Numbered from the stretch's first letter, positions 33,716 to 64,000 are shown. The stretch is 64,000 nt of DNA from an uncultured Myxococcales bacterium (GCA_903895725.1 CAITUV010000043.1:11298-75297), one strand, 5' to 3'. Notes: generated from the letters alone by a model not told the origin. A program made the numbers and translations.

Positions 33716-35044
33716 ATGAGGTTCCAACAACGAGTCGCAGCGGTTGCAGCCGTTTCCGGTCTGCTTTGCACCTTCCTGCCGACCTTTGCAGCGAATGCCG
33801 CCATCTGGACCGCATCGGCAGCGGTGAAGGGGAGCTCGGTGGAGGTGGCCGTCACCGTCCGCCTCTCGGGCTGCGCCGGCGTCGGGCGGGTCGAAAGGCA
33901 GGTCGACGGGGAGGAGCCGTTCGTCGTGTGGCTGGGCGACGATGCGCATGCGGTCGACACGGCGGAACCCTTTGATTCCTGCAAGTGCGAGCCTCTCGGT
34001 ACGGCCTGGGGTACCGGCATGAAGAGCTGCCCCGAGGAGCAGTGCGGCAAGGACGACCAGTGCGTGTGCACTGAGCTGTGCGTTCCAGTCGTGGACTCGT
34101 GCCCCCCTCCGGGCATGCTGGAGTACAAGGTGTTCGACCGGGAAGGTGCGGAAGCAGTTTCGACCCAGTTGTTCGTGCCCGACCTTTTGCCGGGGTGCAA
34201 GGCCCCGGAGAACCCCGGTCCCGTCGTTGCCGAGCCCGCTCCCGGAGATGGGGGCGGGTGCCAGACGGCCTCCAGGCCCTCGTCCCCGCTGACGGTGGTG
34301 CTCGGGGCGCTGCTTCTGGGGGTGCTGCGGTGGGGGCGGCGGCGGGGAAGAAGGGGAATAGGACGAATAGGACGCATAGGACGCATAGGACGCATAGGAC
34401 GCATAGGACGCATAGGACGCATAGGACGCATAGGGGGCATAGGACGCCGCCGCCCCGGAGTGCGTGACGACGCTTGCGAGCCGGGGCTGCCGGTGCGGGC
34501 GAGCCTGGGTGGGCCCACGGCTCACGGCTCACTGCCCACGGCTCACGGCTCACTGCCCACGGCTCACGGCTCACTGCCCACGGCTCACGGCTCACTGCCC
34601 ACGGCTCACTGCTCACTGCCCGGGGCCCTTCTCGCATCCCTTCTCCTGGCTGCGGGGTGTGCGCGGGGCAAGAAGGACGAGAAGGTCGTTGCCGCGCCTC
34701 AGCCCCCTCAGCCGGTTGAATCGAGCGTCGAAGGGACTCCGTTCGAGGTGGTCGTCACGACGCAGACCGAGCTGCTCGACCTGTTCGAGACCGGAACGTC
34801 GGCCGAATCCGTTCTCTGGCGGGGCGACCGCTTCCGCAAGAAGCGGGCGGACCAGTTCGCCAAGGACTGTCGCCTCGCCCTCGACTTCTACTCCGAGGAT
34901 GCCGCAAACCGCATGCTGATCCTGGCCAGTGCGGGCAGGGTATGGACCGTTGTCGAGCAGCGGGTCAAGGTGCTCTCGAAGGAGTGGAGCCCGGCGCAGC
35001 GCCGCCAGGCGGACGTCCTCCTCGACCAGTTCGCTTGCCGGTGA
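33716..35044 (+). CDS. hypothetical secreted protein: N-terminal domain ending in a MYXO-CTERM-like segment, joined in frame through two tandem-repeat arrays to a lipoprotein-like C-terminal domain
   Basis: ORF 33665..35044; ATG 33716 after GAGAAAGGGGGG; signal peptide MRFQQRVAAVAAVSGLLCTFLPTFAANA; GDGGGCQTASRPSSPLTVVLGALLLGVLRWGRRRGRRG resembles a MYXO-CTERM tail; then (IGR)n and (PTAHGSL)n repeats; then LLASLLLAAGC lipobox-like segment; may be two genes or a fusion. Confidence 0.45.
   Translation: MRFQQRVAAVAAVSGLLCTFLPTFAANAAIWTASAAVKGSSVEVAVTVRLSGCAGVGRVERQVDGEEPFVVWLGDDAHAVDTAEPFDSCKCEPLGTAWGTGMKSCPEEQCGKDDQCVCTELCVPVVDSCPPPGMLEYKVFDREGAEAVSTQLFVPDLLPGCKAPENPGPVVAEPAPGDGGGCQTASRPSSPLTVVLGALLLGVLRWGRRRGRRGIGRIGRIGRIGRIGRIGRIGRIGRIGGIGRRRPGVRDDACEPGLPVRASLGGPTAHGSLPTAHGSLPTAHGSLPTAHGSLPTAHCSLPGALLASLLLAAGCARGKKDEKVVAAPQPPQPVESSVEGTPFEVVVTTQTELLDLFETGTSAESVLWRGDRFRKKRADQFAKDCRLALDFYSEDAANRMLILASAGRVWTVVEQRVKVLSKEWSPAQRRQADVLLDQFACR
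34357..34446. repeat. 9-bp tandem repeat (CATAGGACG-like) x10
   Basis: Ten contiguous 9-nt units at 34357..34446; in the plus ORF frame they encode (R-I-G)n; the other two plus-strand frames carry TAG per unit or encode (RT)(HRT)n (acg-cat-agg, stop-free). Confidence 0.9.
34516..34620. repeat. 21-bp tandem repeat (CACGGCTCACGGCTCACTGCC) x5
   Basis: Five contiguous 21-nt units, the last a variant; encode (PTAHGSL)n in the plus ORF frame. Confidence 0.9.
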
Positions 35045-43078: not shown

Positions 43079-46000
43079 ATGTGTTGTCGGAACACGCTGA
43101 GCCATGTCGTAACTCCGTTGCTGGCCATAGCGCTTCTCTGGGGCGCTGGCTTGAGCTCCTGCTCGCCGCAGGCGCCGAGCACGCCGGGGACGGATGCCGA
43201 GGTTACTCCCCCTGGGGACACGGTGGATGCCAAGGACCAGGGGAGCGACGTGGCGACCGATGAGCTCGACACCCTTTCCGATGAGAAGGACGAGAAGGTG
43301 GAGCCCGATGTCCCGGATGTCGGCCCGGACGGCCCGGACTGCCCGTTTGCCGTGTGCAAGGAAGGGGAGTTCCAGTGCAAGATGGCCGGCAAGAAGATTG
43401 TCGTCTGCGAGAAGGACGAAGACGGCTGCTTCACCTGGTCGAAGATGGAGGACTGCCCCGCTGGCCAGGTCTGCAAGGACAAGGTGGGTTGCGCCTGCCA
43501 GTATGGTGCCTGCGAGGCCGGGGATACGCTGGCCGAGGTGTGCGGCGGCAAGCCGCTCGAGCAGTGCGAGATGTGGATCTGCCAGGAGGGCTGCTGCCAG
43601 ACGGCCCTGGTCGAGGATTGCTGCGATGAGATCCAGGACTGCGAGGACTGCATCGAGCTCGAGACCGGCAACCCCGTGGAGTGCACCGACGAGCTCCCCG
43701 AAGGCGTCGTCAAGAACCTGTGCACCCAGGACGCATGCAGCGACGGCAAGTGCGAGCACTTCGACAAGGTGAAGGAAGGCTACTGCAACGACGGTGACAT
43801 GTGCACGCTTGATTCGTGCGACCCGCTGACCGGTGCCTGCACCCACACCGACTCGGGGGAGTGCGTCGACGTGCCGTGCTGGGGCGATTCCGTTGAAGAT
43901 GCCGACACCATGTGCAACGACCTCAACCTCTGCACGGCGGAGGCCTGCAAGTTTGCCGAAGGATTCGCACCGTGGGAGAGCCCGCTGCCGCCCGTCCTTA
44001 TCGATGAGAACGGCGACCTGATTCCGGTGGAAAACTGGCCGGCCAACGTGGGGCTGTGCGTTTACGTCAACAAGCTGGAAGAAGGGGATTGCGACGACCA
44101 GGACAAGTGCACGACGGACTCGTGCAATCCGGAGACGGGGTGTGAGAACCTGCCCGACTACGGCAGCCCGGACCCGGACTGCTTCTGCATCCCCGATGCT
44201 CCGGACGCCTGCCAGGAGGGGGCTGATGCGTGCACGCTGCGCTGGTGCGACCCTCTTACCGAGATGTGCAAGACCAAGCTGAAGGACTGCAACGACAAGA
44301 ATCCGTGCACCGTGGACAGCTGCGACCCCGCGGCGCCAGAGGGGGAGGACCCCTGCGTGCACATCAAGGACCCGAAGTGCGAAGGCGAAATCTGCGCCAC
44401 CGACAACGTGGACGAGTGCCTCGATGCGGTCGGTCCGGACGGCGAGTACCTCTTTGCCCCGCCCACGGGGCCGAGCGGCCCGGTCAGCATGCCCGAGGGT
44501 TACATTCCCAACCTGTGCACTGCGGACCTGTGCATCTTCCAGACCGGCGTCGAGTGGGGCATCTGCCAGCACACGGAGCTGACCTGCGACATGGGCAAGT
44601 GCTTCAACGCCAAGTGCAATCCTCTGTCGGGCAAGTGCGAGGGCGAGCCGGTCAACTGCGATGACGAGAACCCGTGCACCGTGGACGGCTGTGACGATGC
44701 CACTGGCTGTACGCACAACCCGTATCCGTGCCCGGTTTCGGATGTGTGCCACACGGCGTCGTGCATCCCGGACCTTGTTGACCCCAAGCTGCCCAAGTGT
44801 GTCGAGGAGCTGAACCCGTGCCCGAAGAAGACCTGCAAGATCGGCCTGTGCGACCCGAAGGCGGGCGGTCAGTGCGTTTACACGGACGACCCGTGCAGCG
44901 ACGCTGAGCCGTGCACGGATGACCAGTGCGACCCGATTTCGGGCAAGTGCACCCACACGCCCAAGGACGCCAAGTTCTGCGATGACAAGGACCTGTGCAC
45001 GACCGACTCGTGCGACCCGGTGATGGGCAAGTGCCTGCACAAGGAAATGAACTGCGAGGACGGGGACAAGTGCACCGTGGATTCGTGCCACCCGCTCACG
45101 GGCCAGTGCATCCACGTCCCGATGCCGTGCGCCGGCGACGTGTGCAACACCTGCAAGTGCGACAAGAAGACCGGCCAGATCGTCCTGACGCCGATCAACT
45201 GCCCTTCGAACGACAAGTGCACCAAGGGGCAGTGCATGATCGAGGCGGGCGGCTGCGTTTACCAGAACGTCTGCACCTGCCTCGTCGATGGCATCCCGAC
45301 CGACAAGAAGTGCGATGACAAGAACGGCTGCACGCAGGATACGTGCGTCTGTTCGGTCTGGGACCCGGACGGGATCCACTGCAAGGATGCGTACTGTGCG
45401 GCCCCCAAGCCGCTGACGTGCAAGGACAACGACCTGTGCACGCAGGACTCCTGCGACCCGGTTTCGGGCAAGTGCGTGTTCTACCCGGCCCCGTGCAACG
45501 ATAACAACAACTGCACCAGCGATGGATGCGACTCGAAGACGGGCAAGTGCTTCCACGAGGCCACCGTCTGCAACGACAATAACCAGTGCACGAAGGACAC
45601 CTGCGACCCGGCCGTCGGCTGCAAGTACGCTCAGCAGCCGTGCACCGACAACGATCCCTGCACGGAGGACAAGTGCGACCCGGGCCTGGGGTGCCAGTTC
45701 CCTGCGAAGAGCTGCGACGACTACAGCCCGTGCACGCAGGATCTGTGCGACCCGGTCAACGGACTGTGCGTGAACCAGCCCGTGCTCTGCCCCGACGACG
45801 GCAACATCTGCACCACCGAGGGGTGCGACGCGAACACCGGGTTCTGCAAGACCACGGCGAAGAACTGCGACGACAAGAACAAGTGCACCGTCGATTCCTG
45901 CATCGACCAGCTCGGTGTGGCGACCTGCACGAACGTGCCGCCGGATTGTGCGGACATCGACCCCTGCACCCTGGACCAGTGCGACCCGCTCACGGGCAAC

Positions 46001-49000
46001 TGCCAGCATATCAAGAGCGACTGCAACGATTCGAAGAAGTGCACCAACGACTACTGCGATCCGGTCGAGGGATGCCAGAACGTGGCGGTCCAATGCAATG
46101 ACGGCAACCCCTGCACCACCGACGGCTGCAACGAAGCCACCGGCGACTGCAACAACGTGCCGAAGAACTGCGACGACGGCAACCCCTGTACGGTCGACCT
46201 GTGCAACAAGTCGAACGGCAAGTGCTACAACCCGCCGGTCAACACCGACGACGCCAACCCCTGCACCGTGGATACCTGCGACCCGGATACGGGCGCCCAG
46301 GTCCACAACTACATCGACTGCGACGACGGGAGCCCCTGCACCATCGACGTCTGCAACATCGGCAACGGGCTTTGCGAGAACATCCCGAACTCGTGCAACG
46401 ACAACAACAACTGCACCAAGGATACCTGCGACGAAGTCGTCGGCTGCGTGAACAGCAACATCTGCGGCTGCTGCCCGGCCGGCACGAACCAGCTGGACGA
46501 TTCCCTGTGCAAGGATACCGTGCCTGGCACGGGGAGCCCCAACCTGTGCACGCTCGATGCCTGCTACCTGGACGGTGCGACCAACAAGTGCCTCTGCAAG
46601 AACAACCCGGTGTCGTGCACCGATGACGGCAACAAGTGCACGTTGGAGAAATGCGACCCGGTCACCGGCAAGTGCCTGCATGAGCCGGCCCCGTGCGACG
46701 ATTCGAACAAGTGCACCATCGACGAGTGCATTCCGGCCGACGGAAGCTGCACGCATCTGCCCAAGGTGTGCAACGACCAGAACCCGTGCACCGAGGACTC
46801 GTGTGCTCCGGCCACGGGCAACTGCGTGTACAAGCCCAAGGACTGCAGCGACGGCAACTTCTGCACCAGCGACGTGTGCGTGGAAGCGACCGGAGCGTGC
46901 AAGTACACGCCGGTCGACCCGGAGGACGGGGACCTGTGCACTCTCGATTGGTGCGACCCGGTCGTCGGCATCAAGCACCAGCTCATCAGCGTGGACGACG
47001 GCAACAAGTGCACCATCGACACCTGCGACAAGGCCACCGGTGCGCCGAAGAACACGCCGGTCGACTGCGGCGACAAGAACGTGTGCACCGTGGACTACTG
47101 CGTCCCGGCCACCGGCAAGTGCATGAACGACGCCATGCCGTGCAGCGACGGCAACGCCTGCACCAAGGATGCGTGCAACCCGGCCACCGGCCTTTGCGAG
47201 TACAAGTTCTCCTGCGACGACAAGAACCTGTGCACGGACGACTTCTGCAACACCATGACCGGCTGCAGCAACGTCAACGTCAATTGCGACGACGGCAATG
47301 CCTGCACTTCGGACGTGTGTGACCAGGCCACGGGCAAGTGTGTCCACGGCAAGCTGGACTGCGACGACAAGAATGCGTGCACCATCGACCTGTGCGACCC
47401 GGCCAGCGGCGGGTGCAAGCACACGAACAAGTGTGAGGACGGCAACCCGTGCACGCTCGACGTGTGCGACCCGACCACACTGAAGTGCTCGTACAAGCCG
47501 GCGTGCGACGACTCGAGCAAGTGCACCAAGGACGACTGCAACGTCAACACCGGTGAGTGCACCTACCTGCCCGTCGACTGCAAGGACGCGAACCTCTGCA
47601 CGACGGACGAGTGCAACCCGGCCACGGGCTGCGTCAACAAGGTGAAGTCGTGTGACGATGCGGACAAGTGCACGCTGGACGTTTGCGACGGCAAGACCGG
47701 GGGGTGTGTCAACACGCCGGCCATCTGCGACGACGGGGACCTGTGCACCATCGATTCGTGCAACCCGGCCACCGGGGCCTGCACATACGAGCTGCTGTGC
47801 GACGACGGCGACGGCTGCACCGTGGACAAGTGCGTGCTGGCCGGCGGTGAGGCCACCTGCTCCCACACGCCCAAGGTGTGCAACGACAAGCTGCTGTGCA
47901 CCAGCGACTCCTGCATCAAGGATACGGGGGCCTGTGTGTTCACTCCCAAGGATTGCGGGGATACGGACCTGTGCACCGTGGACACCTGCAACGCGCTCGA
48001 CGGCACCTGCAAGCATGTTGCCAAGAACTGCAACGACAACAACAAGTGCACTTCGGACGCCTGCGACGGCGTCACCGGCAAGTGCGTCAACACGATGATG
48101 GACTGTGCGGACACCAACCTCTGCACCACTGACTACTGCGACCCGAAGACCGGGGTGTGCAAGCACGACTACAACCTCTGCAACGACAGCAACAAGTGCA
48201 CCGTCGACCTGTGCATCCTCGAGACGGGCAAGTGCCAGAACACGCCGGTCAACTGCGACGACGGGGATGCCTGCACCGACGACTCGTGCGACGGCGCCAC
48301 GGGCAGCTGCACGCACAAGACAAAGAGCTGCAATGACTCCAACCTCTGCACCACCGACTGGTGCAGCAAGGCAGACGGCTGCCACAACGACGCGAAGCTG
48401 TGCGACGACGTGAACGCCTGCACGACCAACAACTGCAACCCGGCCACGGGCGGGTGCTACTACACGCCGCTGGACTGTGACGACAAGGACCTCTGCACCA
48501 CCGATACCTGCGACAAGGCCAAGGGGTGCCAGGTTGCCAAGAAGTGCAACGACGGCTATGTGTGCACCAACGACCTCTGCAACCCGAACACCGGGGCCTG
48601 CACTTACAAGAATGCCTGCGACGACGGCGATGCCTGCACCAACGACATCCCGACGCCCAACGGCGACAAGTGCGACTGCAAGCTGGAAGCCGTGGCCTGC
48701 GACGACAAGGTGCCGTGCACGGACGATTCGTGCGACCCGGCCAAGGGATGCGTCAACGTGGCCAAGACGTGCGACGACGGCAACAAGTGCACCGTCGACA
48801 TGTGCGAGAAGGCGACGGGGATCTGCAAGAACACTCCGATCACCTGCAACGACAACGACGACTGCACGAAGGATTCCTGCGCGGCGGAGACCGGGAGCTG
48901 TGACTACACTCCGGCCTGCGACGACGGGATCAAGTGCACCGTGGACAACTGCAGCCCGGGGGCCGGAGTGCCGGATGGCAAGTTCACCTGCGACATCAAG

Positions 49001-52000
49001 CCCAAGGCCTGCGACGACAGCAACAAGTGCACCGTGGATTCCTGCGACGAGGAGACGGGCAACTGCGTGTACCAGGAGCTCGACAAGGACGACGGCAACG
49101 CGTGCACCGTGGACATCTGCAACCCCATCACGGCGGAGGTCTACCACGTAGCGCTCGACTGCAACGACTTCAACGCCTGCACCATGGACTCGTGCAACCC
49201 GGATACCGGCTGCGTGAACACGGCCATGGACTGCGACGACAAGGACCTGTGCACCTTCGACTACTGCGACCCGTCCCTGGGCGTCTGCAAGCACGACCCC
49301 AAGCAGTGCGAGGATGCCAACGCCTGCACGACGGACTACTGCGACCTGGCCACGGGCAAGTGCGTGAATCAGCCCAAAAAGTGCGACGATGGCAATGCCT
49401 GCACCGAGGATGTCTGCCAGGCAGCGACCGGTCAGTGCAAGTACCTCGTCAAGAACTGCGATGACGGCAATGCCTGCACGGCGGACACCTGCGACGCCCA
49501 GAGCGGATGCTCCAACGTGGCCAAGGTGTGCAAGGACAACAGCGCCTGCACGGTGGACGGATGCAACGCTCAGACGGGGCTGTGCGAATACAAGCCGGTG
49601 GACTGCAACGACTTCAGCATGTGCACCGACGATGCCTGCGACCCGGACCCGGCCGTGGGCTGCTACCACATCTCCATCTGCAACGACACGAACCCTTGCA
49701 CGACAGACCTGTGCGATGAGAAGACCGGCAAGTGCACCTACACGCCGGCCTGCGACGACGGCAATGCCTGTACGTTCGACGATTGCAAGATTGATTCGGG
49801 CGCATGCACGCACGAGGCGATCAACTGCAACGACAACAACCTCTGCACCGCGGACAGCTGCGACAAAGCCAAGGGGTGCGTGAACGCCTGGAATAACTGC
49901 GACGACGGCAACAAGTGCACGGTGGACACGTGCGACCCGGCCAACGGCAAGTGCCTGAACGACCCGAAGGACTGCGGCGACGACGACATCTGCAGCGACG
50001 ACCTTTGCGACACCAAGACCGGCGAGTGCAAGCACACGCTCCACTGCGACGACAAGAACCTCTGCACCACCGACTTCTGCAACACGGTGACCGGAGCCTG
50101 CACTTACGAGACCGTGGTGTGCAACGACGGTGACAAGTGCACGGTGGACACGTGCGACCCGCTGACGGGTGCCTGCAATTACTCCTCCACCGCGTGCGAC
50201 GACAAGGACGCCTGCACCAACGACTTCTGCAAGCCGGCCGACGGCACGTGCTCCTACGTGGCGGTGGGCTGCATCGACGCGGACCCGTGCACCGACGACT
50301 CATGTGACAAGGTGAAGGGCTGCCTCCACACGGCCAAGGTGTGCGACGACAAGGATCTGTGCACCAACGACTTCTGCAATCCGGCGAGCGGGGCCTGTAC
50401 CTACCAGAGCAAGAAGTGCAACGACGGTGACCCCAAGACCTGGGACTCCTGTGACGTGGCCACGGGCGAGTGCGTCTACAAGCCGTGCGCCTGCGACGAC
50501 GGGAACAAGTGCACCGACGACTCCTGCGACAACACCGGCAAGTGCGTCTACACGACGACCAACTGCGACGACAAGGATGCCTGCACCACGGACATCTGCA
50601 CTGCGGACAAGGGTTGCCAGTACCAGAACAAAGACTGTTCCGACGGCAACGCGTGCACCGACGACGTCTGCAACAAGGACACGGGCATCTGCTCGAACCT
50701 GGCCAAGTCGTGCGACGACAAGAACATCTGCACGAAGGATTCCTGCGACCCGAAGCTGGGGTGCCAGAACCTGGCGGCCTGCGATGACGGATATGCCTGC
50801 ACGACCGACGTGTGCAACCCGGCCGACGGCAAGTGCACCTACAAGCCCAAGTGCGAGGATTCCAACGCGTGCACGAAGGACACGTGCGACGTGGCCACGG
50901 GCAACTGCACGAACGTGGCCATCTCGTGCGACGACAAGAACCCGTGCACCGACGACGCGTGCAACCCGGCCGTGGGATGCGTGAGCACTCCCAAGGTCTG
51001 CTCCGACTCGAACCTGTGCACGACCGATTCGTGCAAGGCCGACACGGGCGATTGCGTGTTCACTCCCAAGAGCTGTGACGACGTGAACCCGTGCACCCTG
51101 GACAGCTGCGATGCGGCCACGGGCAAGTGCAGCTACAAGCCCAAGTGCGACGATTTCAAGAACTGCACCACGGACACTTGCAATGCGGCGACGGGGGCCT
51201 GCGCCAACACGCCGGTGGTCTGCAACGACAACGCTCCGTGCACCACCGACACCTGCGACGAGGCCACGGGCAAGTGCACCTACAAAATGAAGGACTGCGA
51301 CGACAAGAACGCGTGCACCGACGACCTGTGCGACCCGCTCACCACCAACTGCGTCAACGTGGTCAAGAGCTGCAACGACAACAACAACTGCACCGACGAC
51401 TCCTGCGACCCGGCGACGGGCTGCAAGAACGTGGCCAAGACCTGTGACGACGGCAACAAGTGCACGTCGGACACCTGCAACCCGAGCAACGGGCAGTGCG
51501 ACAACATCCTCAAGACCTGTGCGGACAACAACAAGTGCACGGTGGATTACTGCGACCAGAATACCGGCAGCTGCGTCTACCAACCCCAGGTCTGCGACGA
51601 CAAGAACAACTGCACCGACGACTCGTGCGACACGCTGACCGGCGAGTGCAAGTACACCACGAAGAATTGCGACGACAAGAGCAAGTGCACCACCGACTTC
51701 TGCGATGCGCAGCTCGGCTGCGTCAACCAGATGAAGGATTGCAGCGACGGCAACGCCTGCACCGAGGACTCGTGCGACGCGGTTACCGGCCTGTGCAAGA
51801 ACACCACCATGGATTGCAAGGACGGCAACCCGTGCACGCTGGACAAGTGCGAGCCGGACAAGGGGTGCGTCTGGACCTCCAAGTGTGAGGACGGGCTCAA
51901 GTGCACCACTGACCTGTGCAATCCGCTGGACGGCGCCTGCACTTACAAGCAGAAGTGCGACGACTCGAACTTCTGCACGACCGACGTCTGCAAGGAGACC

Positions 52001-55000
52001 GACGGAAGCTGCTCGACGACTCCCGTCAACTGCGATGACAAGAACCTGTGCACGAACGATTCGTGCGACCCGACCAAGGGGTGCGTCAACACGCTGAAGT
52101 CGTGCGACGACAAGAACCCGTGCACGGACGACAAGTGCGATGCGTTGACGGGCAACTGCTCCAACACGGCCAAGGTCTGCGACGACAAGGACATCTGCAC
52201 GACGGACAGCTGCGACCCGGTCTCGGGCGTCTGCAAGTTCGCCAGCAAGTGCGAAGATGGGAACAAGTGCACGGTCGACTCGTGCGATCCGGCCCAGGGA
52301 GGCAAGTGCACGAGCGTACCGCTGGTCTGCGACGACAAGAGCAAGTGCACGGACGACAAGTGCGACCCGGCCAGCGGGAACTGCGTGTTCACCGCCAAGG
52401 CATGCGACGACGGCCTCAAGTGCACGGACAACAAGTGTGATCCGCTGACGGGCAACTGCTCGTTCCCGCCCAAGGAGTGCGACGACAAGAACATCTGCAC
52501 GACCGACTACTGTGATGCGGCAACGGGCAACTGCGTCAACGACCCCAAGAACTGCGGGGACAACAACCTCTGCACCACGGACTCGTGCGACATGGTCAAC
52601 GGCGGCTGCATCAACGCCCCGAAGGACTGCAACGACAACAACCCGTGCACCAACGACACCTGCAATGCGGCGGACGGCAAGTGCGCCAACACTCCGATTC
52701 CGTGCAACGACAGCAACGCCTGCACGGACGACAAGTGCGTCAACGGCCAGTGCCAGTACACGACCAAGGTCTGCAGCAAGCCGGACAAGTGCCTGGTCAC
52801 CGGCTGTGACCCGCAGACCGGTTGCTGGGAGAAGGCCAAGGACTGCAACGACGGCAACGCGTGCTTCGATGACCTGTGCGATCCGTCGTCGGGCAACTGC
52901 CTGCACCCGGCCGTGGACTGCAACGACAACAACCTCTGCACGGTGGATTCGTGCGACCCGGGTGCCACGGGCAAGGCCAACGGCTGCGAGAACAAGCTGA
53001 TGGTTTGTGACGACAAGAACCCGTGCACGACCGACACGTGCGATCCGGCGACGGGCAACTGCAAGAACGTCAACTACTGTGACGACGGCTTGAAGTGCAC
53101 CACGGAACAGTGCGACCCGGCCACCCTGCAGTGCACCTTCCTGCCGAAGAACTGCGACGATGGCGACAAGTGCACTTCGGATTCCTGTTCTGAGGTCAAG
53201 GGCGGCGCGTGCGTCAACCAGGTCAAGGACTGTGTGGACTACGTCGACCCGGCCAAGACCGTCCCTGACCTGTGCACTCTCGACAGTTGCGACAAGGGCA
53301 CCGGCGAATGCCTCCACGAGCAGAAGAACTGCAACGACAACAACATCTGCACTGCGGACTCCTGCAACAAGCTGACCGGCGAGTGCAAGTACGCTCCGTC
53401 CTGCTCGGACAACAATAAGTGCACGACCGACTTCTGCGATGCGCAGACGGGTGCCTGCTCGCACCAGAACGTGGTCTGCGACGACAAGAACCCGTGCACG
53501 ACCGATTCGTGCGACGTGCTGACGGGAAGCTGCAAGTACACGGCGATCAAGTGCTCGGACGGCGATGCCTGCACGCAGGATGTCTGCTCGCCCAACGGCC
53601 AGGGCGGATTCGTCTGCACCAACCCGCCGTGGGACTGCAACGACGCCAACCCGTGCACGGTCGATTCGTGCAACAAGACCGACCCGGATGGCAACGGCTG
53701 CATGAACCAGGCCAAGGTGTGCGACGACAAGAACCTGTGCACCGTCGATGCCTGCGATCCGAAGTCGGGTGACTGCACCTACAATGCCAAGAATTGCGGC
53801 GACGGCAACCCGTGCACGGTGGATCTCTGCGACAACGGCACCGGCAACTGCTCCAACTCGCCGCTCGTCTGCGACGATGCCAGCAAGTGCACCACGGACA
53901 AGTGCGACCCGGCCACCGGGAACTGCATCTACACGGCCATCTCGTGCGACGACGGCAAGAAGTGCACCAACGACACCTGCGACCCGTCGGTGGGCTGCAA
54001 GAACCACCCGAAGGAATGCATCCCGAACCCGGCCGACCCGTGCATGACCTACGGATGCACCGAGCTGACCGGCAACTGCTTCCAGGAGACGAAGAACTGC
54101 GACGACAAGGACCCGTGCACTACGGGGGACTACTGCGACCCGGATTCGGGCGGCTGCGTCAACGTGGCCATGGTCTGCAACGACGGCAACAAGTGCACCG
54201 ACGACAAGTGCGGGCCCGATCCGCTGGCCCCGACCAAGGGCAAGTGCTTCTTCACGACCGTGAGCTGCGACGACAACAACGCCTGTACCGACGACTCGTG
54301 CGATCCCGTCAAGGGGTGCCAGAACAAGGCCAAGGCGGGCGTGCAGTGCACGTCCGAGGCCCAGTGCGGCGACGGCAGCCTCTGCACCAACGACGTGTGC
54401 GACACGACCGTCACCTGCAAGTGCTCCAACCCGACCAAGAGCTGCAACGACAGCAACTGCTGCACGGTGGACTCGTGCGACCCGGCCAAGGGGTGCGTCA
54501 ACGCCATCCAGTACGACGGGTGTGCGGTGTGCAAGCTCGACAAGGACTGCCTGGTCGAGTGTCCCAAGATCAACGGCGTCCCCATCTCGCCGGACGACCC
54601 GGTTACCGGCAAGTGCGACCCCGATACCAAGGTGGTCTACGATGCCAAGGGGGTGCCTCACATCCAGCGCACGGCCTGCACCACGTGGTACTGCGACCTG
54701 GCCGCTCAGGGCTGCGGTACCGGCTCGGGCAAGTGCTCCTACACGATCAAGGACTGCAGCGACAACAACGTCTGCACCCTCGACTTCTGTATTCCCGACG
54801 GAGCCAATGCCGGCGAGTGCCTGCACGAGGCCAACCCGCTGTGCTGCACGGCCAAGACCGATCCTCCGCTGATGGAGGAAGACCCGGCCTGGGACCCGGC
54901 CAAGTCACTCTGCTTCGACGACGACCCGTGCACGACGGACTTCTGCGACTACGACACGGGGAGCTGCTACTACGAGCCCGTCGTCTGCTTCGACGGCAAC

Positions 55001-57283
55001 GAGTGCACCATCGACGCGTGCGTCTCGGACAAGGGCGGCTGCGTCTACACGGGCATCGAGAACTGCCGGTACACCTGCTACAACGATTACGACTGCCGCT
55101 TCGACCACGGCAAGAACATCGGCGAGGTCTGTGACGATGGCAACACGGTATCGGGCGACGGCTGCCGGAAGGACTGCCGGAGCGCCGAGACGTGCGGCAA
55201 CGGCGCAGTCGACACGGCCAAGGCCGAGGAGTGCGACGATGGCAACACGGCGGCCGGCGACGGCTGCTCTGCCACCTGCAAGCTCGAGATTGCCGCCACC
55301 TGCGGCAACGGCAAGATTGATGCCGGCGAGGCCTGCGACGATGCCAACAAGGTCAGCAAGGACGGCTGCCGGAAGGACTGCAAGAGCAAGGAGACCTGCG
55401 GCAACGGCCTCGTCGACACGGAGAAGGGCGAGGAGTGCGACGACGGCAACAAGATTCCGGGCGACGGCTGCGGCAACACCTGCAAGCTCGTGCCCGACAT
55501 GGCCTGCGGCAACATGCTGGAGGACCCGGCCGACGTGGACTTCCTGTGCAGCACCGAGTACTGCACGTTCACGGCCGACCCGTTTGGAACCTGCATCTAC
55601 GAGACGCTCGAGTGCGACGACGGACACGCCTGTACGGACTTCGTCGAGTGCGCACCGGCTTCCGGCTGCCAGCACGTGCCGGTCGTGGGCTGCAATGATA
55701 CCTCGTGCGTCAAGCCTCAGGGCCAGGAAGCCCAGGCACCGGAGTGCTTCGACGACAACCTGTGCACGGGCGACACCTGCGGTGAGGATGGCAAGTGCAT
55801 CGTCCTACTGATCCCGTGCGACGACAACGACGGTTGCACCATGGACTGGTGCGATCCCAAGACCGGCTCGTGCATGCACAAGCAGGCGGCCAACTGCGTC
55901 TCCGACTGCACGCAGCTCGGGGGCAACTCGGCCTGCAACGACAACGACTTCTGCACGGTCGACGAGTGCGACGAGTTCAACGGCGTCTGCAAGTACAACC
56001 TGCTCGAGTGCGACGACCATGACGTCTGCACGACCGACACGTGCGATGCCGCAACCGGGTGCAAGTTCACCACCATCGCCAACTGCAAGGGCTGCTCAGT
56101 GGACAAGGATTGCGACGACGGCAACGTCTGCACCATGGACCGCTGCCGTGAGGCCAATCCGCTCAGCCTCGACGACGCCAACTACATCGGCGACGGGTTC
56201 CAGCACCCGGCCAAGTACTGCACCTACCGGTCGGTTTGCGCCAGCTGCACGACCGATGCGGACTGCACGGCCGCCATGGCCGACAACCTCTGCATCACCA
56301 GTGCCAAGTGCAACGTCGCCACCGGGTTCTGCGACCTCAAGATCACTCAGTGCGACGACAAGGACCCGTGCACCGAGGACGAGTGCAACATCTTCACCGG
56401 CGAGTGCGTCAACGCCCCGGTCGCCAACTGCTGCGACACCATCGAGGACTGCGTGGACACCAATCCCTGCACCGGGCGCTGGTGCGACACGACCGCCAAG
56501 GAGTGCAACTTCCCGTACTACCTGTGCGACGACTGGGATCCGTGCACGGCAGATTCCTGCGACTACTTCACGGGCAACTGCAAGCACGAAGACCTGGCCA
56601 ATTGCTTCGACGAGTGCGAGAAGGATCTGGACTGCCGCTACCACGCGGACCCGGTCAACTGGTGCTCGGTCCCGACCTGCGATCTGGATGCCAAGACCAT
56701 GAGCATGAAGTGCAACTACGCTGTGCTGGAGTGCTCGGACGCTTTGGCCTGCACGACGCAGGACTGCCTGTCCAACTTCGGATGCATCTTCTTCCCCGAC
56801 ACGCCGTGCGACGTGGTCTGCACCAAGGATTCCGACTGCAACGACGGCGACCTTTGCTCCACCGACACGTGTGACAAGGCCAAGGGCGAGTGCAAGTACG
56901 AGGCCGTGGTCTGCGACGACGGCAACGAGTGCACCTACAAGGAGTGCGACAACCGGACCGGCAAGTGCGTGTTCACCGAGTGCCCGGATTGCAAGTGCGA
57001 GAACTGCTCTCTGCACGAGCCCGGCTTCTGTGACGACGGCAACGTCTGCACGACGGATTCCTGCCCCGAGGGCGACTTCCCGACCTGCAAGCACCGTTGG
57101 TTGACCTGCAACGACGGCAACCCCTGCACGCAGGACGTCTGCGATCCGGTCAAGGGCTGCACGGCCGTGCCCATCGAGAAGTGCATCGGCTGTACCAGCG
57201 ATTCCGCCTGCGACGATGGAAACGACTGCACCATCGACATGTGCACCGACAACTCCTGCGAGCACGTATACATCTGCGGCTAA
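43079..57283 (+). CDS. giant (about 4,734 aa) cysteine-rich repeat lipoprotein: Dictyostelium-type CTDC repeats plus Myxococcus cysteine-rich repeats
   Basis: ORF 42884..57283; ATG 43079 after GAGGAGGGTG; lipoprotein signal [28 protein letters not shown]; more than 100 degenerate units of C-x-D-x-N-x-C-T-x-D-x-C-(D/N)-P-x-T-G-x-C; near aa 4080-4200 about four units of CGNGxxDxxEECDDGNxxxGDGC; uninterrupted frame across 14.2 kb. Confidence 0.85.
43830..55100 (+). repeat. coding tandem array of degenerate CTDC-type repeats (about 75-90 nt period) inside the giant gene
   Basis: Recurrent tgcgacgac...aac..tgcac...gac..tgcgacccg..accggc..tgc motif throughout; units diverge at synonymous and non-synonymous sites; boundaries approximate. 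Confidence 0.6.
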
Positions 57284-58870: not shown

Positions 58871-59001
58871 GCGACGCGTGTCAAAACTCCGTGCCTTACG
58901 GGGGCACGTCGCACAGCACCTATTCTTGACGACGGACCCAGGATGCAGTTAAATGCACGTTCGATTTGGTAGGTAGCAGCTGCCTGCGCCGGGGAGGCGG
59001 A

Positions 59002-59907
59002 ATGACAGATGTTCTGGGGATCGACAGCTGGGTGCTCGATCAGGCGCTCGAGTTCCTTCCGGACGCAGCGTTGAGCTGCAACGAAGGGGGGCGGATCCTC
59101 GGCACCAACCGGGAAGCCACGGTCCTCCTCCGGAGGGAGGCGCGGGACTTGCACGGGATGGGGCTGGGCGTGTTCCTGCCCGCAGTGGCCGAGTGGGTGG
59201 AGTCAGACACATTTCTGGACATGGTCCGTTCGGGGGGGCTCGACTCTGAGCAGGAGCTGGTGGATGCGTCGGGCCGGGAGCACCTGGTATGGCTGCGGTC
59301 CAGACTCCTCGCCCGGAATCGCGAGGGAAACCGGTTCGTCCTGTTGACGGTCCGGGACATCACCAACCGGGTGCACACGGAGCAGCGCCTGCGCGAGATG
59401 GCGCTCACCGACGAGCTGACCGGACTGCACAACCGGCGCTACCTCGATTCGATACTCGACTTCGAAGTGGAGCGTGCCCGGCGTTACGGGTACATGCTGT
59501 GCTGCCTGTTTGCCGATCTGGACCGGTTCAAGCAGATCAACGATGAGCACGGGCACCACGTCGGGGATCTGGCGCTGAGGTTCGTTGCCGATCGCCTGCG
59601 GGTGGCCTGCCGCAAGCTGGACACGTTGGTGCGGTGGGGCGGGGATGAGTTCGTCGTGATAGCGCTCACCAAGGATATGGATGGTGCCCGCCGTCTGGTT
59701 GAGCGTGTCAACGAGGCCGTGTCGGCCACACCGCTTGATTTCAATGAGGGGACCGTCTCGCTCGGCCTGAGCAGCGGGGCATCGGTAGGCAATGTCGGCG
59801 TCGGCGAGTCTCCGTCCGCCATGCTGGAGCACGCCGACATTCTGCTTCGACAAGCCAAGGCTTCCGGCCGGGGACGGTGGCGGGTGGAGCTGTTCCGCGC
59901 GACCTGA
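59002..59907 (+). CDS. PAS-like sensor domain fused to GGDEF diguanylate cyclase
   Basis: ORF 58966..59907; ATG 59002 after GGGAGGCGG; GGDEF domain with RYLD...RWGGDEF. Confidence 0.8.
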   Translation: MTDVLGIDSWVLDQALEFLPDAALSCNEGGRILGTNREATVLLRREARDLHGMGLGVFLPAVAEWVESDTFLDMVRSGGLDSEQELVDASGREHLVWLRSRLLARNREGNRFVLLTVRDITNRVHTEQRLREMALTDELTGLHNRRYLDSILDFEVERARRYGYMLCCLFADLDRFKQINDEHGHHVGDLALRFVADRLRVACRKLDTLVRWGGDEFVVIALTKDMDGARRLVERVNEAVSATPLDFNEGTVSLGLSSGASVGNVGVGESPSAMLEHADILLRQAKASGRGRWRVELFRAT

Positions 59908-62980: not shown

Positions 62981-64000
62981 CTACTGGTGGGCCCTGAGGG
63001 GGCGGCGACGTACGGCAACAAGCGCCAGGGCGAGGAAGAGCAGGAGTGCCGGCCCGGCCGAGGGAGTGGCGGAGGCGGAGCAACCGTCCCCCTTCTTCTT
63101 ACCGGGCTGAAGGGTGATGTCTCCATCTTCGGCATCATCGCTGATCTCGCCACCTGCCACCTCATCGCCGCCGAGGTCGGGAGTGACGGTGTCATGCTGC
63201 TGGACATCGGGTATCACGGTCGTCTCATTGGCGATTTCGTCGCCCGGTGTCCAGTCCTCGCCGGCTCCGTCGGGGGGCAGCACGACATCGGGCTGTGCGA
63301 CCTCCTCGCCGACGTCGACCGGGGAGACGATCTCCTCCGACTGCTCGACCACGTCGGGCTCCTCTTCCACCGGGATGTCGGTGCATTCACCGAGCACGCA
63401 CCAGGTTCCGGACGGGCACTTCTTGGGGGCGCCGGCGCAGCCGTTCTGGGAGCAGGAATCCTCGATGGTGCAGGGGTCGCCGTCATCGCACGGTCCCGTG
63501 GTCGGGACCGGCACGCACTCCCCTTCCTGGCACTCGCCGGTGATGCAGGTGCCGACGATGCCCGAGCAATCCTTGGGCTCGCCGCCAGCGCACAGGCCGT
63601 CCTGGCAGATTTCACCTTCCGTGCAGGGGTCACCGTCATCACAGGGGCCCAGAATCGGTTTTCCGTAGCAGACGCCCTGGATGCAGGCCGGCTTCACGCA
63701 GGGACCGGCGACAAACTCCGAGCAGTCCTTGGGGCTTCCCTGGCACTGGCCATCCACGCAGACGTCATTGTCGGTGCAGGGGTCACCGTCATTGCAGGGC
63801 CCCTCGACCGGGGCAGGCTGGCAGACGCCGTCCACGCAAACGCCAGCGAAGCAGCCGGCGTTGAGCTGGGAGCAGTCCATGGGAGTGCCCTGGCAGGAGC
63901 CGGCGACGCACTTGTCGTCGGTAGTGCAGGAATCGGAATCGTCGCAGACCGCCTCGATGGGGGCTGCCACGCACAGCCCTGCTTCGCACACGCCCACGAC
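62981..64000 (-). CDS. cysteine-rich repeat protein with MYXO-CTERM-like tail (5' end beyond the window)
   Basis: ORF 62981..63997 continues off the window; repeats GPCxDGDPCTxxDxCxxGxCxGxPKDCS; C-terminal GDGCSASATPSAGPALLLFLALALVAVRRRPLRAHQ. Confidence 0.7.
   Translation of the reverse strand, partial: VVGVCEAGLCVAAPIEAVCDDSDSCTTDDKCVAGSCQGTPMDCSQLNAGCFAGVCVDGVCQPAPVEGPCNDGDPCTDNDVCVDGQCQGSPKDCSEFVAGPCVKPACIQGVCYGKPILGPCDDGDPCTEGEICQDGLCAGGEPKDCSGIVGTCITGECQEGECVPVPTTGPCDDGDPCTIEDSCSQNGCAGAPKKCPSGTWCVLGECTDIPVEEEPDVVEQSEEIVSPVDVGEEVAQPDVVLPPDGAGEDWTPGDEIANETTVIPDVQQHDTVTPDLGGDEVAGGEISDDAEDGDITLQPGKKKGDGCSASATPSAGPALLLFLALALVAVRRRPLRAHQ

What the first reader, a model, noticed from the sequence alone, without database searches (positions are those of the whole stretch)
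43079..57283. Single 14.2-kb gene for a ~4,734-aa lipoprotein built from more than 100 CTDC-type cysteine repeats
One uninterrupted frame encodes a lipoprotein signal peptide, then a degenerate repeat C-x-D-x-N-x-C-T-x-D-x-C-(D/N)-P-x-T-G-x-C iterated more than 100 times. It continues into about four Myxococcus cysteine-rich repeats (CGNGxxDxxEECDDGNxxxGDGC) and a distinct C-terminal Cys-rich region. Units differ at the nucleotide level, which argues for a genuine ancient array rather than a collapsed assembly. A lipid-anchored, disulfide-rich fibre of this size is a candidate giant adhesin or matrix scaffold; function is unknown.
Basis: partly seen in the sequence, partly recalled or inferred. 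Interest (0 to 1): 0.7.

Follow-up and report, generated by a model that had tools for sequence, protein, structure and literature searches.

The report
Giant disulfide-stapled surface rod protein
One intact 14.2-kb gene from an uncultured freshwater myxobacterium-like bacterium encodes a lipid-anchored protein of about 135-148 small cysteine-knotted repeats; it is the longest array found of a repeat that is common in databases but unstudied in bacteria, and it is most likely a stiff surface fibre.

Summary
Window 43079-57283(+) is one uninterrupted 4,734-aa frame with a Shine-Dalgarno site, a lipoprotein signal (LSSC) and 713 cysteines. Pfam Dicty_CTDC matches at E=0 with 104 significant stretches; custom HMMs count 135-148 units. 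Four TIGR02232/DUF4215 repeats follow.

The one correction: the "distinct" C-terminal region is more CTDC units, arranged in short capped segments.

The gene is real and under selection. An independent metagenome contig holds an ortholog whose frame stays open for all 3,687 residues available. It is 87.7% identical, has three tiny indels, keeps 559 of 559 aligned cysteines, and gives dN/dS 0.13.

An AlphaFold model of five units (pLDDT 93.7) shows one beta-hairpin per unit. Its only solved structural relative is the disulfide-rigidified arm of the Entamoeba Gal/GalNAc lectin heavy chain. Cysteine co-loss across 4,673 units supports that structure's Cys1-Cys4 intra-unit bond.

The best reading is an outer-membrane-anchored, highly acidic, disulfide-stapled rod acting as adhesin, spacer or matrix fibre. 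This function is inferred, not shown.

The repeat is very common in metagenomes (14,648 cluster representatives), mostly in giant "hypothetical" proteins of uncultured Myxococcota. I therefore rate this a new, record-length member of a known but uncharacterised kind. Interest is moderate.

The parts
42905..43078 (+). Conserved upstream block: promoter-like TTGTAT-17 nt-TATATG, a conserved hairpin (GGGGAAGGGAGTCGGGGCTCGTTTCCCC) and the Shine-Dalgarno site GAGGAGG
   Evidence: 83-90% nt identity to the same position in orthologous loci L084 and L085. Shown in the three-way alignment. The consensus fold has 2 compensatory pairs, but from only three sequences. No Rfam family matches, and the generic sigma-70 scan finds no site.
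43079..43162 (+). Lipoprotein signal peptide (aa 1-27) plus the lipobox cysteine Cys28 (L-S-S-C)
   Evidence: Read from the sequence. MCCR... start and lipobox Cys are conserved in L084 (GMSSC) and L085 (ATGC). Lipidation itself cannot be tested here.
43163..43336 (+). Acidic, Pro/Asp/Glu-rich low-complexity tether (aa 29-86)
   Evidence: Read from the sequence. It is the fastest-evolving part, with dN/dS 0.34. Many relatives have the same kind of linker after the signal.
43337..45418 (+). Membrane-proximal irregular Cys-rich region (aa 87-780): CTDC units interrupted by 20-58-aa Cys-rich inserts
   Evidence: Gap map of the unit HMM. Pfam finds 3 CTDC stretches in aa 1-374. The first 235 aa have no BLAST match in 120 relatives but are conserved in the orthologs.
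45419..54508 (+). Regular Dicty_CTDC array (aa 781-3810): about 120 consecutive 24/25-aa four-cysteine units with only three short interruptions
   Evidence: AlphaFold2 on aa 1601-1726 gives pLDDT 93.7 and one beta-hairpin per unit. Unit-for-unit collinear with L084. dN/dS is 0.09-0.15.
54509..55057 (+). Irregular Cys-rich stretch (aa 3811-3993) containing an 82-aa insert and a few CTDC units
   Evidence: BLAST gives only repeat-level matches to relatives.
55064..55540 (+). Four TIGR02232 (myxo_disulf_rpt) / DUF4215 repeats: CGNG..D..EECDDGN...GDGC
   Evidence: TIGR02232 at 6.4e-39 with 4 stretches; PF13948 at 8e-20 with 4 stretches. A 204-nt tandem unit is present 1.8 times at 80% identity. 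Single copies of the motif match pappalysin-1/2 in the PDB at E 1e-5 to 1e-4.
55613..57283 (+). Distal (C-terminal) segmented region (aa 4179-4734 plus stop): about 8 modules of cap (C-x2-C-x3-D-x-D-C) followed by two CTDC units. No C-terminal sorting signal.
   Evidence: 11 Dicty_CTDC stretches at 3.3e-46. Module map. NCBIfam finds nothing, so no MYXO-CTERM or similar signal. The protein ends ...CEHVYICG*.
40748..42757 (-). Context, not part of the gene: divergently transcribed 670-aa PAD_porph / agmatine-deiminase-family protein with an N-terminal hydrophobic segment. It is syntenic in both orthologous loci.
   Evidence: PF04371 at 1.4e-41. TIGR03380 scores far below its cut-off. tblastn gives 85% and 77% aa identity at the same position and orientation in L084 and L085.

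Best explanation
The gene encodes a Sec-exported lipoprotein. It is tethered by its N-terminal lipid, most likely to the outer membrane, through a short acidic linker. The remaining roughly 4,650 residues form one long, stiff, strongly acidic rod.

The rod is a chain of about 135-148 CTDC units. Each unit is a 24/25-aa beta-hairpin closed by a Cys1-Cys4 disulfide. By analogy with the Entamoeba lectin arm, each unit is also stapled to both neighbours through Cys3(i)-Cys2(i+1). That would give roughly 300 disulfides made in the periplasm.

The far end carries four TIGR02232 repeats and about 8 short capped CTDC segments. It has no enzyme or toxin domain.

The rod most likely works mechanically, as a surface fibre that binds, spaces or coats. 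Candidate roles are adhesion to prey, particles or kin, or a cell-surface or matrix layer. This would parallel the amoebozoan CTDC matrix proteins and the lectin arm.

What is shown: an intact gene, its repeat families, a signal/lipobox, purifying selection on every unit, a confident hairpin-per-unit model, and Cys1-Cys4 coupling.

What is inferred: lipidation, outer-membrane or surface location, inter-unit disulfides, rigidity and the adhesive or structural role.
For: - Intact gene: frame, ribosome-binding site and lipobox are present.
- Repeat families: Dicty_CTDC at E=0 with 104 stretches; TIGR02232 x4.
- Fold: AlphaFold2 five-unit model has pLDDT 93.7 with two strands per unit.
- What HgL does: its 20-35-aa four-Cys pseudo-domains bond first-to-fourth within a domain and second/third to the neighbouring domains. 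This rigidifies an elongated arm (PMC12948311).
- Cys1-Cys4 coupling in this protein: four canonical units lack both Cys1 and Cys4, and none lacks only one.
- Cys1-Cys4 coupling across relatives: in 4,673 units from 246 proteins the two are lost together 299 times (odds ratio 656). Boundary cases favour the intra-unit pairing 37:0.
- Cys2 and Cys3 are almost never lost, and never both in the same unit.
- Selection: the ortholog is collinear at 87.7% identity with 559/559 cysteines kept and dN/dS 0.13. Even the positions that vary between units have dN/dS 0.20.
- Composition: net charge -508; Asp 14.9%, Arg 0.3%.
- Sorting: mature N-terminus CSPQAPST has no +2 Lys, the Myxococcus xanthus inner-membrane retention signal (PMC3222651).
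- Relatives: they commonly pair a signal/lipobox and acidic linker with CTDC arrays and distal LamG, NHL, RHS, RCC1, LTD or cohesin domains, which fits a stalk role.
- Characterised CTDC or C4C proteins are extracellular structural proteins: EcmA/EcmB matrix (PMC4931340), and spore coat SP75 and eggshell CREMP (PMC3068167).
Against: - There is no experimental datum for any bacterial CTDC protein.
- Inter-unit Cys3-Cys2' pairing is not demonstrated. The co-loss test is uninformative because these cysteines are almost never lost, and the array-end test was inconclusive.
- The M. xanthus extracellular-matrix sorting signal (+7 Ala) is absent; this protein has +7 Ser. How a 4,700-aa lipoprotein would cross or sit on the outer membrane is unknown.
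- No binding domain or ligand is identifiable.
- The neighbourhood gives no functional clue beyond synteny among close relatives.
Confidence: 0.55

Rival explanations
1. Released matrix or cement protein. The lipoprotein is shed or exported and becomes part of an insoluble extracellular matrix or coat. It would be cross-linked by intermolecular disulfides or lysine-derived bonds, like Dictyostelium EcmA/EcmB, spore-coat proteins or eggshell CREMP, rather than remaining a cell-anchored fibre.
For: - Characterised CTDC/C4C proteins are matrix, coat or membrane-fibre components.
- The protein has 7.2% Lys against 0.3% Arg.
- M. xanthus does export lipoproteins such as FibA into the matrix.
- Two other Cys-rich secreted proteins and two GGDEF proteins are encoded nearby.
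Against: - The +7 Ala matrix signal defined in M. xanthus is absent.
- Cysteine counts fit closed intramolecular pairing: all 559 aligned Cys are conserved, and the co-loss is pairwise.
- High Lys is not family-wide; relatives range from 0.2 to 5.7%.
- No cross-linking enzyme is seen in the window.
Confidence: 0.22
2. Cation sink or mineral-interacting polyanion. The main role would be to bind Ca2+ or other metals through the many Asp/Asn residues (or thiols), for example to buffer ions or nucleate mineral at the cell surface.
For: Net charge is -508. Asp3 is invariant, Asp10 is present in 97% of units, and Asn/Asp5 is conserved in nearly every unit. The D-x-[ND]-x-C motif is reminiscent, from memory only, of Ca-binding EGF and TSP3 motifs.
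Against: - No Ca-binding family is detected; Pfam finds only PF00526.
- The strict pairwise cysteine pattern argues for disulfides rather than metal-thiolate clusters.
- Selection on unit-specific surface residues (dN/dS 0.20) is more than a simple polyanion would need.
- Metal binding could well be structural and would then be compatible with the main explanation.
Confidence: 0.08
3. Delivery stalk for a toxin or effector, like bacterial teneurin-like or RHS proteins that carry CTDC repeats in their variable N-terminal part.
For: Several relatives combine CTDC arrays with RHS/YD, NHL or Tox-type domains. A preprint lists Dicty_CTDC among the N-terminal domains of bacterial teneurin-like proteins (10.1101/2025.11.11.687626).
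Against: This protein has no RHS, NHL or toxin domain. Pfam, run on the whole protein and on the last 600 aa, reports only CTDC; NCBIfam reports nothing on the whole protein or on the last 600 aa, and reports TIGR02232 only on the repeat segment. It ends inside a CTDC unit. No immunity-like small ORF follows; the downstream gene is convergent.
Confidence: 0.03
4. Artefact: a mis-assembled or expanded repeat, or a long ORF produced by composition in a high-GC genome, rather than a real gene.
For: High-GC DNA gives many long spurious ORFs. Two antisense ORFs of 2,364 and 1,508 aa overlap the gene.
Against: - Pfam E=0 in the sense frame and GC3 of 0.91.
- Units are only about 59% identical in DNA, so collapse or expansion is unlikely.
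- Two independent assemblies give collinear open orthologs with dN/dS 0.13.
- The antisense ORFs are in codon phase with the sense frame, which has only 4 TTA/CTA/TCA codons in 4,734.
Confidence: 0.01

Closest known systems
Giant 'hypothetical' Dicty_CTDC proteins of uncultured Myxococcota MAGs (e.g. P0001, 5,357 aa; NCBI loci HUU55_07365, KC502_11355, AMXMBFR64_48820)
   Same: Same repeat family. Same frequent layout of signal/lipobox, acidic linker and long CTDC array. All are acidic and Arg-poor. 92 of 244 relatives are CTDC-only, like this one.
   Different: The best hit is only 43% identical over 38% of the query. It shares no N-terminal region and no synteny. This protein has the most units: 135 versus 104 for P0001 and <=64 for the rest, counted with an HMM not built from it. 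Many relatives carry distal LamG, NHL, RHS, RCC1, LTD or cohesin domains that this protein lacks.
Entamoeba histolytica Gal/GalNAc lectin heavy chain (HgL) cysteine-rich arc and lever arm (PDB 9gjc/9gjf; PMC12948311)
   Same: It is the only solved structure that matches the five-unit model. It has small 20-35-aa beta modules with four cysteines. The first and fourth bond within the module, which agrees with the Cys1-Cys4 co-loss seen here. It forms an elongated, disulfide-rigidified arm on a cell-surface adhesin.
   Different: No detectable sequence homology. HgL has about 20 modules, a transmembrane anchor at the C-terminal end and a globular lectin core. Its modules are three-stranded, whereas the model here shows two DSSP strands per unit. 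It is eukaryotic.
Dictyostelium extracellular matrix proteins EcmA/EcmB, PsiA and other founding members of Pfam PF00526
   Same: Same Pfam family and 24-aa four-Cys period. All are secreted structural or matrix proteins (PMC4931340).
   Different: They are eukaryotic, with tens of units rather than more than 130, no lipid anchor, often combined with PA14 domains. The Dictyostelium functions (slime sheath, stalk tube) cannot be transferred.
C4C modules of Dictyostelium spore-coat SP75 and avian eggshell-membrane CREMP (PMC3068167)
   Same: Same cysteine spacing when read from Cys2: C-x4-C-x5/6-C-x6-C here, against C-x4-C-x5-C-x6-10-C there. These are disulfide-rich extracellular fibre or coat proteins.
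   Different: Homology was not tested here. CREMP units are nearly identical to one another and are embedded in lysine-cross-linked fibres.
Pappalysin-1/2 (PAPP-A) single 'Myxococcus cysteine-rich repeat'
   Same: The CG[DN]G...E[EQ]CDDGN..[SP]GDGC motif of the four TIGR02232 repeats aligns to PAPP-A/PAPP-A2 residues around 865-917 (E 1e-5 to 1e-4).
   Different: Pappalysins are metalloproteases with one copy of the motif. Here four tandem copies sit inside a non-enzymatic rod.

Membership tests
Pfam PF00526 Dicty_CTDC repeat proteins | HMM score above the gathering threshold (27 bits) | tested here: met
   1795.2 bits, E=0, 104 stretches. Also met separately by the N-terminal 374 aa and the C-terminal 600 aa.
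Pfam PF00526 Dicty_CTDC repeat proteins | Tandem ~24-aa units with four regularly spaced cysteines and a C-T-x-D-x-C core | tested here: met
   Core-to-core spacing is 25 aa in 65 cases and 24 aa in 32 cases. C1, C2, C3 and C4 are invariant, T8 is 98% and D10 is 97% in 96 seed units.
Pfam PF00526 Dicty_CTDC repeat proteins | Secreted or extracellular protein | tested here: met
   N-terminal signal with lipobox, conserved in orthologs. This is a sequence-level prediction only.
NCBIfam TIGR02232 myxo_disulf_rpt (cysteine-rich acidic repeat) / Pfam DUF4215 | HMM score above the curated cut-off (20.8 bits; PF13948 27 bits) | tested here: met
   131.5 bits with 4 stretches; PF13948 71.3 bits with 4 stretches, on nt 55064-55540. 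The full-length scan missed it.
Bacterial lipoproteins (Lgt/LspA substrates) | Charged n-region, hydrophobic h-region and lipobox [LVI][ASTVI][GAS]C within the first ~35 residues | tested here: met
   R4; [19 protein letters not shown]28. The cysteine is conserved in L084 and L085.
Bacterial lipoproteins (Lgt/LspA substrates) | Actual diacylglyceryl modification and signal peptidase II cleavage | not testable with these tools
   Needs globomycin sensitivity, lipid labelling or mass spectrometry.
HgL-type disulfide-concatenated pseudo-domain arm (Entamoeba Gal/GalNAc lectin) | Fold similarity of the repeat module | tested here: met
HgL-type disulfide-concatenated pseudo-domain arm (Entamoeba Gal/GalNAc lectin) | First and fourth cysteine form the intra-module disulfide | tested here: met
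   Indirect evidence. Cys1 and Cys4 are lost together 299 times in 4,673 units (OR 656), boundary cases run 37:0, and four double losses with no single loss occur in this protein.
HgL-type disulfide-concatenated pseudo-domain arm (Entamoeba Gal/GalNAc lectin) | Second and third cysteines bond to the previous and next module | tested here: inconclusive
   Cys2 and Cys3 are almost never lost, and never both in one unit, which argues against a local Cys2-Cys3 bond. Co-loss of Cys3(i) with Cys2(i+1) was seen once in 40 cases, and the array-end test was not significant. No model coordinates were available.
HgL-type disulfide-concatenated pseudo-domain arm (Entamoeba Gal/GalNAc lectin) | Detectable sequence homology | tested here: not met
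   The profile of five units and the whole protein find no PDB chain, even at E<=10.
T1SS giant repeat adhesins (RTX / LapA / SiiE / Bap type) | Ig-like/BIg/cadherin-like repeats, RTX nonapeptides and a C-terminal T1SS signal | tested here: not met
   Pfam reports only PF00526 for the whole protein. The C-terminus is a CTDC unit.
Polymorphic toxins / bacterial teneurin-like (RHS-YD) proteins | YD/RHS shell, NHL propeller and C-terminal toxin domain | tested here: not met
   None detected here, although several relatives have them.
C-terminal sorting-tag proteins (MYXO-CTERM, PEP-CTERM, T9SS CTD) | C-terminal sorting domain or hydrophobic tail | tested here: not met
   NCBIfam finds no family in the last 600 aa at E<=1. 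The sequence ends ...[13 protein letters not shown] with no hydrophobic tail.

The most novel reading that the evidence does not exclude
Bacterial CTDC arrays may be fixed-length, disulfide-concatenated 'molecular rulers'. The exact number and identity of units has been kept here: no unit was gained or lost over 3,689 residues at dS 0.58, and unit-specific residues have dN/dS 0.20. Such a rod would set a defined stand-off distance or present an ordered series of binding surfaces on the cell surface of predatory, Bradymonadales-like Myxococcota.

This very large bacterial family (14,648 cluster representatives) may also be the evolutionary source of the cysteine-rich matrix and adhesin modules of Amoebozoa, namely Dictyostelium Ecm proteins and the Entamoeba lectin arm, through transfer from bacterial prey to amoeba.
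Probability: 0.2. Interest if true: 0.65.

Novelty: new member of a known kind. Interest (0 to 1): 0.42.

Why it matters
The Dicty_CTDC repeat is named for slime moulds, yet here it appears as a very abundant building block of giant bacterial surface proteins that nobody has studied. There are 14,648 cluster representatives at E<=0.001, and the named ones come from Myxococcota and a few other phyla.

This gene is the longest and most regular example retrieved. It also has collinear orthologs, which makes it a good model for three questions:
1. What is the structure and disulfide topology of the CTDC unit? This work links it to the newly solved Entamoeba lectin arm and supplies statistical evidence for the Cys1-Cys4 bond.
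2. How does a Gram-negative cell oxidise, export and anchor a 4,700-residue protein with about 350 disulfides?
3. Were amoebozoan matrix and adhesin repeats exchanged with bacteria?

In practical terms, the unit is a candidate modular, very stable rod for protein engineering.

If the protein is simply one more uncharacterised surface fibre, the result is of moderate interest and mainly a matter of annotation.

Tried and rejected
- **Source genome.** An exact 26-nt search for the gene start in GTDB species representatives found nothing. The source genome is therefore not there.
- **NCBIfam on the whole protein.** It gave 0 families. Scanning the sub-segment was needed to recover TIGR02232.
- **Higher-order super-repeats.** Unit similarity shows no dependence on lag 1-12. 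TRF finds only small local arrays.
- **Shared anchor module with the second Cys-rich lipoprotein (31367-33562).** A resemblance seen by eye was not supported by BLASTP (E=2.1). Rejected.
- **Riboswitch or known RNA upstream.** Rfam finds nothing. Generic promoter and terminator scans were uninformative.
- **First alignment for structure prediction.** Overlapping windows were mis-registered by MAFFT (A1). It was replaced by non-overlapping windows (A2).
- **Inter-unit disulfide test.** Neither Cys3(i)/Cys2(i+1) co-loss nor array-end enrichment gave a significant result.
- **Sequence link to any solved structure for the CTDC part.** None was found.
- **AFDB50 fold library.** Not available on the machine.
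- **Gene-neighbourhood inference.** The best database relative has a different neighbourhood. Synteny with the PAD-family gene holds only among close orthologs, so it is weak evidence of a functional link. NCBIfam on the neighbours added nothing decisive.
- **Second structure-prediction job.** Not used. The tool returns no coordinates, so a model of the C-terminal segments would not have settled connectivity or shape.

Full report
**1. Observation**

Window 42884-57283(+) contains no stop codon.
- The most plausible start is ATG 43079. It lies 6 nt after GAGGAGG and gives 4,734 aa.
- The gene has no ambiguous bases.
- Its GC3 is 0.91, against about 0.75-0.88 for neighbouring genes.
- The product is 15.1% Cys (713 residues), 14.9% Asp, 9.8% Thr, 7.5% Asn and 7.2% Lys. 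It has only 0.3% Arg, and its net charge is -508.
- The N-terminus [28 protein letters not shown] has the three parts of a lipoprotein signal, ending in the lipobox L-S-S-C28.

Two very long antisense ORFs (42950-50044 and 50300-54826) are by-products. They are in codon phase with the sense frame, which uses only four TTA/CTA/TCA codons in 4,734.

**2. Repeat families**

Pfam PF00526 (Dicty_CTDC) matches at E=0, 1795 bits, with 104 individually significant stretches. No other Pfam family is found in the whole protein.

An HMM built from the protein's own units finds 148 units covering 75% of the sequence. An HMM built only from units of a different protein (P0001) finds 135.

The unit consensus is C-[DN]-D-x-[ND]-x-C-T-x-D-x-C-[DN]-P-x-T-G-(x)-C-x5-6, with a 24- or 25-aa period.

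NCBIfam on the full protein reported nothing. The segment at nt 55064-55540 scores 6.4e-39 with four stretches of TIGR02232, and 8e-20 for DUF4215. Single copies of this motif align to pappalysin-1/2 in the PDB.

The last 600 aa hold 11 more CTDC stretches. They are arranged as about 8-10 short segments of two to three units, each introduced by an extra C-x2-C-x3-D-x-D-C cap.

**3. Is it a real, intact gene?**

Units average only 59% nt and 44.5% aa identity. There is no lag structure, and the maximum is 82% nt over 72 nt. Assembly collapse or recent expansion is therefore unlikely.

A metagenome scan with the unique N-terminal 340 aa found two orthologous loci.

L084 (contig Ga0233425_10005373):
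- Its frame is open for all 3,687 residues held.
- It is 87.7% identical in protein and 86% in DNA.
- There are only three indels, of 1-2 aa.
- All 559 aligned cysteines are conserved.

Selection measured against L084:
- dS is 0.58, dN is 0.075, and dN/dS is 0.13.
- Along the array dN/dS is 0.09-0.15. In the acidic linker it is 0.34.
- Core positions give 0.02. Positions that vary between paralogous units still give 0.20.

L085 (Ga0172371_10026562):
- It is open for 1,417 aa to the contig end.
- It is 74% identical, with indels of at most 3 aa, and keeps 189 of 196 cysteines.

Shared features of the three loci:
- Both orthologs begin MCCR(N/R)T and keep the lipobox cysteine.
- Both have the same divergent PAD_porph-family gene upstream.
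- Both share a ~175-nt conserved block before the start codon.

The array is thus old, collinear unit for unit across three lineages, and under purifying selection. The artefact and pseudogene readings are refuted.

**4. Organism and context**

The exact DNA is absent from GTDB representatives.

The neighbouring tgt gene is 88% identical in protein to a gene in MAG K_DeepCast_100m_m2_324; the next best match is 57%. The Lake Tanganyika study classifies that MAG as p__Myxococcota; c__UBA4248, with a SILVA assignment to Bradymonadales and 66% GC (PMC8245535 supplement).

The gene appears to stand alone, between a divergent and a convergent neighbour. The surroundings are chromosomal housekeeping genes (uvrA, tgt) plus two GGDEF proteins, a PHB-depolymerase-like esterase and a Metallophos-propeller protein. 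The window also contains two other Cys-rich secreted ORFs.

**5. Relatives**

A search of 5.8 billion proteins gave 140 hits at E<=1e-10.
- All 120 listed hits are giant, 2.6-7.2 kaa.
- All but one of the 120 carry PF00526; the exception is P0086, which lists PF10282 and PF24517 only.
- Where named, they are nearly all "hypothetical protein". Most come from uncultured Myxococcales, Myxococcota or Deltaproteobacteria MAGs, with a few from Planctomycetes or Acidobacteria.
- The best hit is 43% identical over 38% of the query. Its N-terminal region has no counterpart here, and its neighbourhood is different.

A profile of five units, scored against 1.84 billion cluster representatives, finds 14,648 proteins at E<=1e-3 and 2,730 at E<=1e-30. 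The repeat is very common.

Among the 245 best relatives this protein has the most units: 135, against 104 for P0001 and <=64 for all others.

Many relatives share the layout of signal/lipobox, acidic linker and CTDC array. By a crude census of relatives:
- 186 of 225 full-length proteins have an N-terminal hydrophobic signal, and 96 of those look like lipoboxes.
- 108 of 244 have more than 400 aa of non-CTDC sequence after the array.
- 92 of 244 are CTDC-only, like this one.

The extra domains in relatives are LamG, NHL, RHS, RCC1, LTD, SUMF1 and cohesin. This suggests the array often serves as a stalk.

**6. Structure**

AlphaFold2 on aa 1601-1726, with 14 in-register paralogous segments as the alignment, gives mean pLDDT 93.7. 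It predicts two short strands (one hairpin) per unit.

The paper on that structure (PMC12948311) describes 20-35-aa pseudo-domains of a "novel fold", each with four cysteines. The first and fourth bond within the domain. The second and third bond to the previous and next domains. Together they rigidify an arc and a lever arm. The paper does not mention Dictyostelium anywhere in its main text.

**7. Independent test of connectivity**

In this protein, four otherwise canonical units lack both Cys1 and Cys4. They start at aa 1056, 1281, 1305 and 2003. No canonical unit lacks only one of the two.

I anchored units on non-cysteine residues (D...T.D......G) in 246 proteins, giving 4,673 units.
- Cys1 and Cys4 of the same unit are lost together 299 times, against 117 single losses (odds ratio 656).
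- At the boundaries of such runs, the data favour Cys1(i)-Cys4(i) over Cys4(i)-Cys1(i+1) by 37 cases to 0.
- Cys2 and Cys3 are almost never lost, and never both in one unit. This speaks against a local Cys2-Cys3 bond.
- The inter-unit Cys3(i)-Cys2(i+1) bond could not be shown statistically.

The HgL-type topology is therefore supported for the intra-unit bond and inferred for the inter-unit staple. If each unit adds roughly 1 nm, which is an assumption, the rod would exceed 100 nm.

**8. Mechanism proposed**

The steps are: Sec export, lipidation at Cys28, oxidation of about 350 disulfides in the periplasm, and outer-membrane anchoring. The +2 residue is Ser, not the Lys that retains M. xanthus lipoproteins in the inner membrane. 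The +7 Ala matrix signal of M. xanthus is absent (PMC3222651).

From the anchor, a stiff polyanionic rod would project. Its distal ~900 aa is segmented and carries the four TIGR02232 repeats.

All characterised relatives of the unit are extracellular structural or adhesive proteins:
- Dictyostelium EcmA/EcmB and Psi proteins (PMC4931340).
- Spore-coat SP75 and eggshell CREMP, which have the same cysteine spacing (PMC3068167).
- The HgL arm.

I therefore favour a surface fibre (adhesin or spacer) at about 0.55. A shed, cross-linked matrix component is the main rival at about 0.22. A metal-sink role, toxin delivery and artefact are minor or refuted.

**9. Novelty and score**

The families are known and the architecture is common among uncultured Myxococcota. 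This is a new member of a known kind, not a new system. Four points go beyond routine annotation:
- The record unit count.
- The strict unit-for-unit conservation across orthologs.
- The structural link between Pfam Dicty_CTDC and the 2026 Entamoeba lectin arm.
- The statistical evidence for the Cys1-Cys4 bond.

The literature held here has almost nothing on bacterial CTDC proteins. Five papers mention the domain, and only one of them in bacteria, in passing. I score interest at 0.42.

Noticed in passing
window 31367-33562 (-): A second Cys-rich predicted lipoprotein (MAIDRV...LVAAC; 11.7% Cys over the stop-to-stop ORF). It is built from about 12 copies of a ~38-aa unit, C.P.C.GKECG.DGCGGSCG.CP.G..C, interleaved with W-rich modules. 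It matches no Pfam or NCBIfam family.
   Followed up: partly
window 34358-34447 and 34513-34621: Two microsatellite-like tandem repeats lie in the intergenic region between that Cys-rich gene and uvrA: a 9-nt unit x10 at 93% match, and a 21-nt unit x5.2 (also readable as 7 nt x15) at 98% match.
   Followed up: no
window 62981-64000 (-): A third Cys-rich ORF (10% Cys, weak DUF7107 match, one CTxDxC core) runs off the end of the window. This genome region encodes several disulfide-rich secreted proteins.
   Followed up: no
window 42905-43078 (+): A ~175-nt block upstream of the giant gene is 83-90% identical in the two orthologous loci. That is better conserved than the first 86 codons of the gene. 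It contains TTGTAT-17 nt-TATATG and a conserved GC-rich hairpin before the Shine-Dalgarno site. It is not a known Rfam family. It may be a promoter plus a regulatory 5' leader.
   Followed up: partly
window 43079-57280 (+) and 40748-42757 (-): Arginine is almost absent from the giant protein (15 of 4,734 residues, 0.3%). It is also low in all relatives checked (0.3-2.1%), against 7.1% in other genes of the window. This produces the strong A-over-T skew of the coding strand (AT skew 0.18-0.32 at 44-56 kb). The conserved divergent neighbour is a 670-aa peptidyl-arginine/agmatine-deiminase-family protein with an N-terminal hydrophobic segment. Any link between the two is speculative.
   Followed up: partly
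window 42950-50044 (-) and 50300-54826 (-): Antisense ORFs of 2,364 and 1,508 aa mirror the gene. They are in codon phase with the sense frame, which contains only four TTA/CTA/TCA codons, so they are compositional by-products.
   Followed up: yes
L081:26253-35351, L082:30478-34029, L083:29440-34350: Next to the best database relative (P0001) lies a second CTDC/TSP3 gene. Its length differs among three assemblies of otherwise identical context: 3,032, 1,183 and 1,636 aa. This is either real repeat-number variation or an assembly problem in that gene.
   Followed up: no
relatives P0001-P0245 (4,673 anchored units): About 6% of CTDC units in relatives (299) are two-cysteine units lacking Cys1 and Cys4, often in runs (130 adjacent pairs). 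The intra-unit bond is therefore dispensable, while Cys2 and Cys3 are almost never lost.
   Followed up: partly
window 30369-31619 (-) and 58930-59904 (+): Two diguanylate cyclases (a response-regulator-GGDEF and a PAS-GGDEF) flank the region that holds the Cys-rich surface-protein genes. No c-di-GMP riboswitch was found upstream of the giant gene.
   Followed up: no
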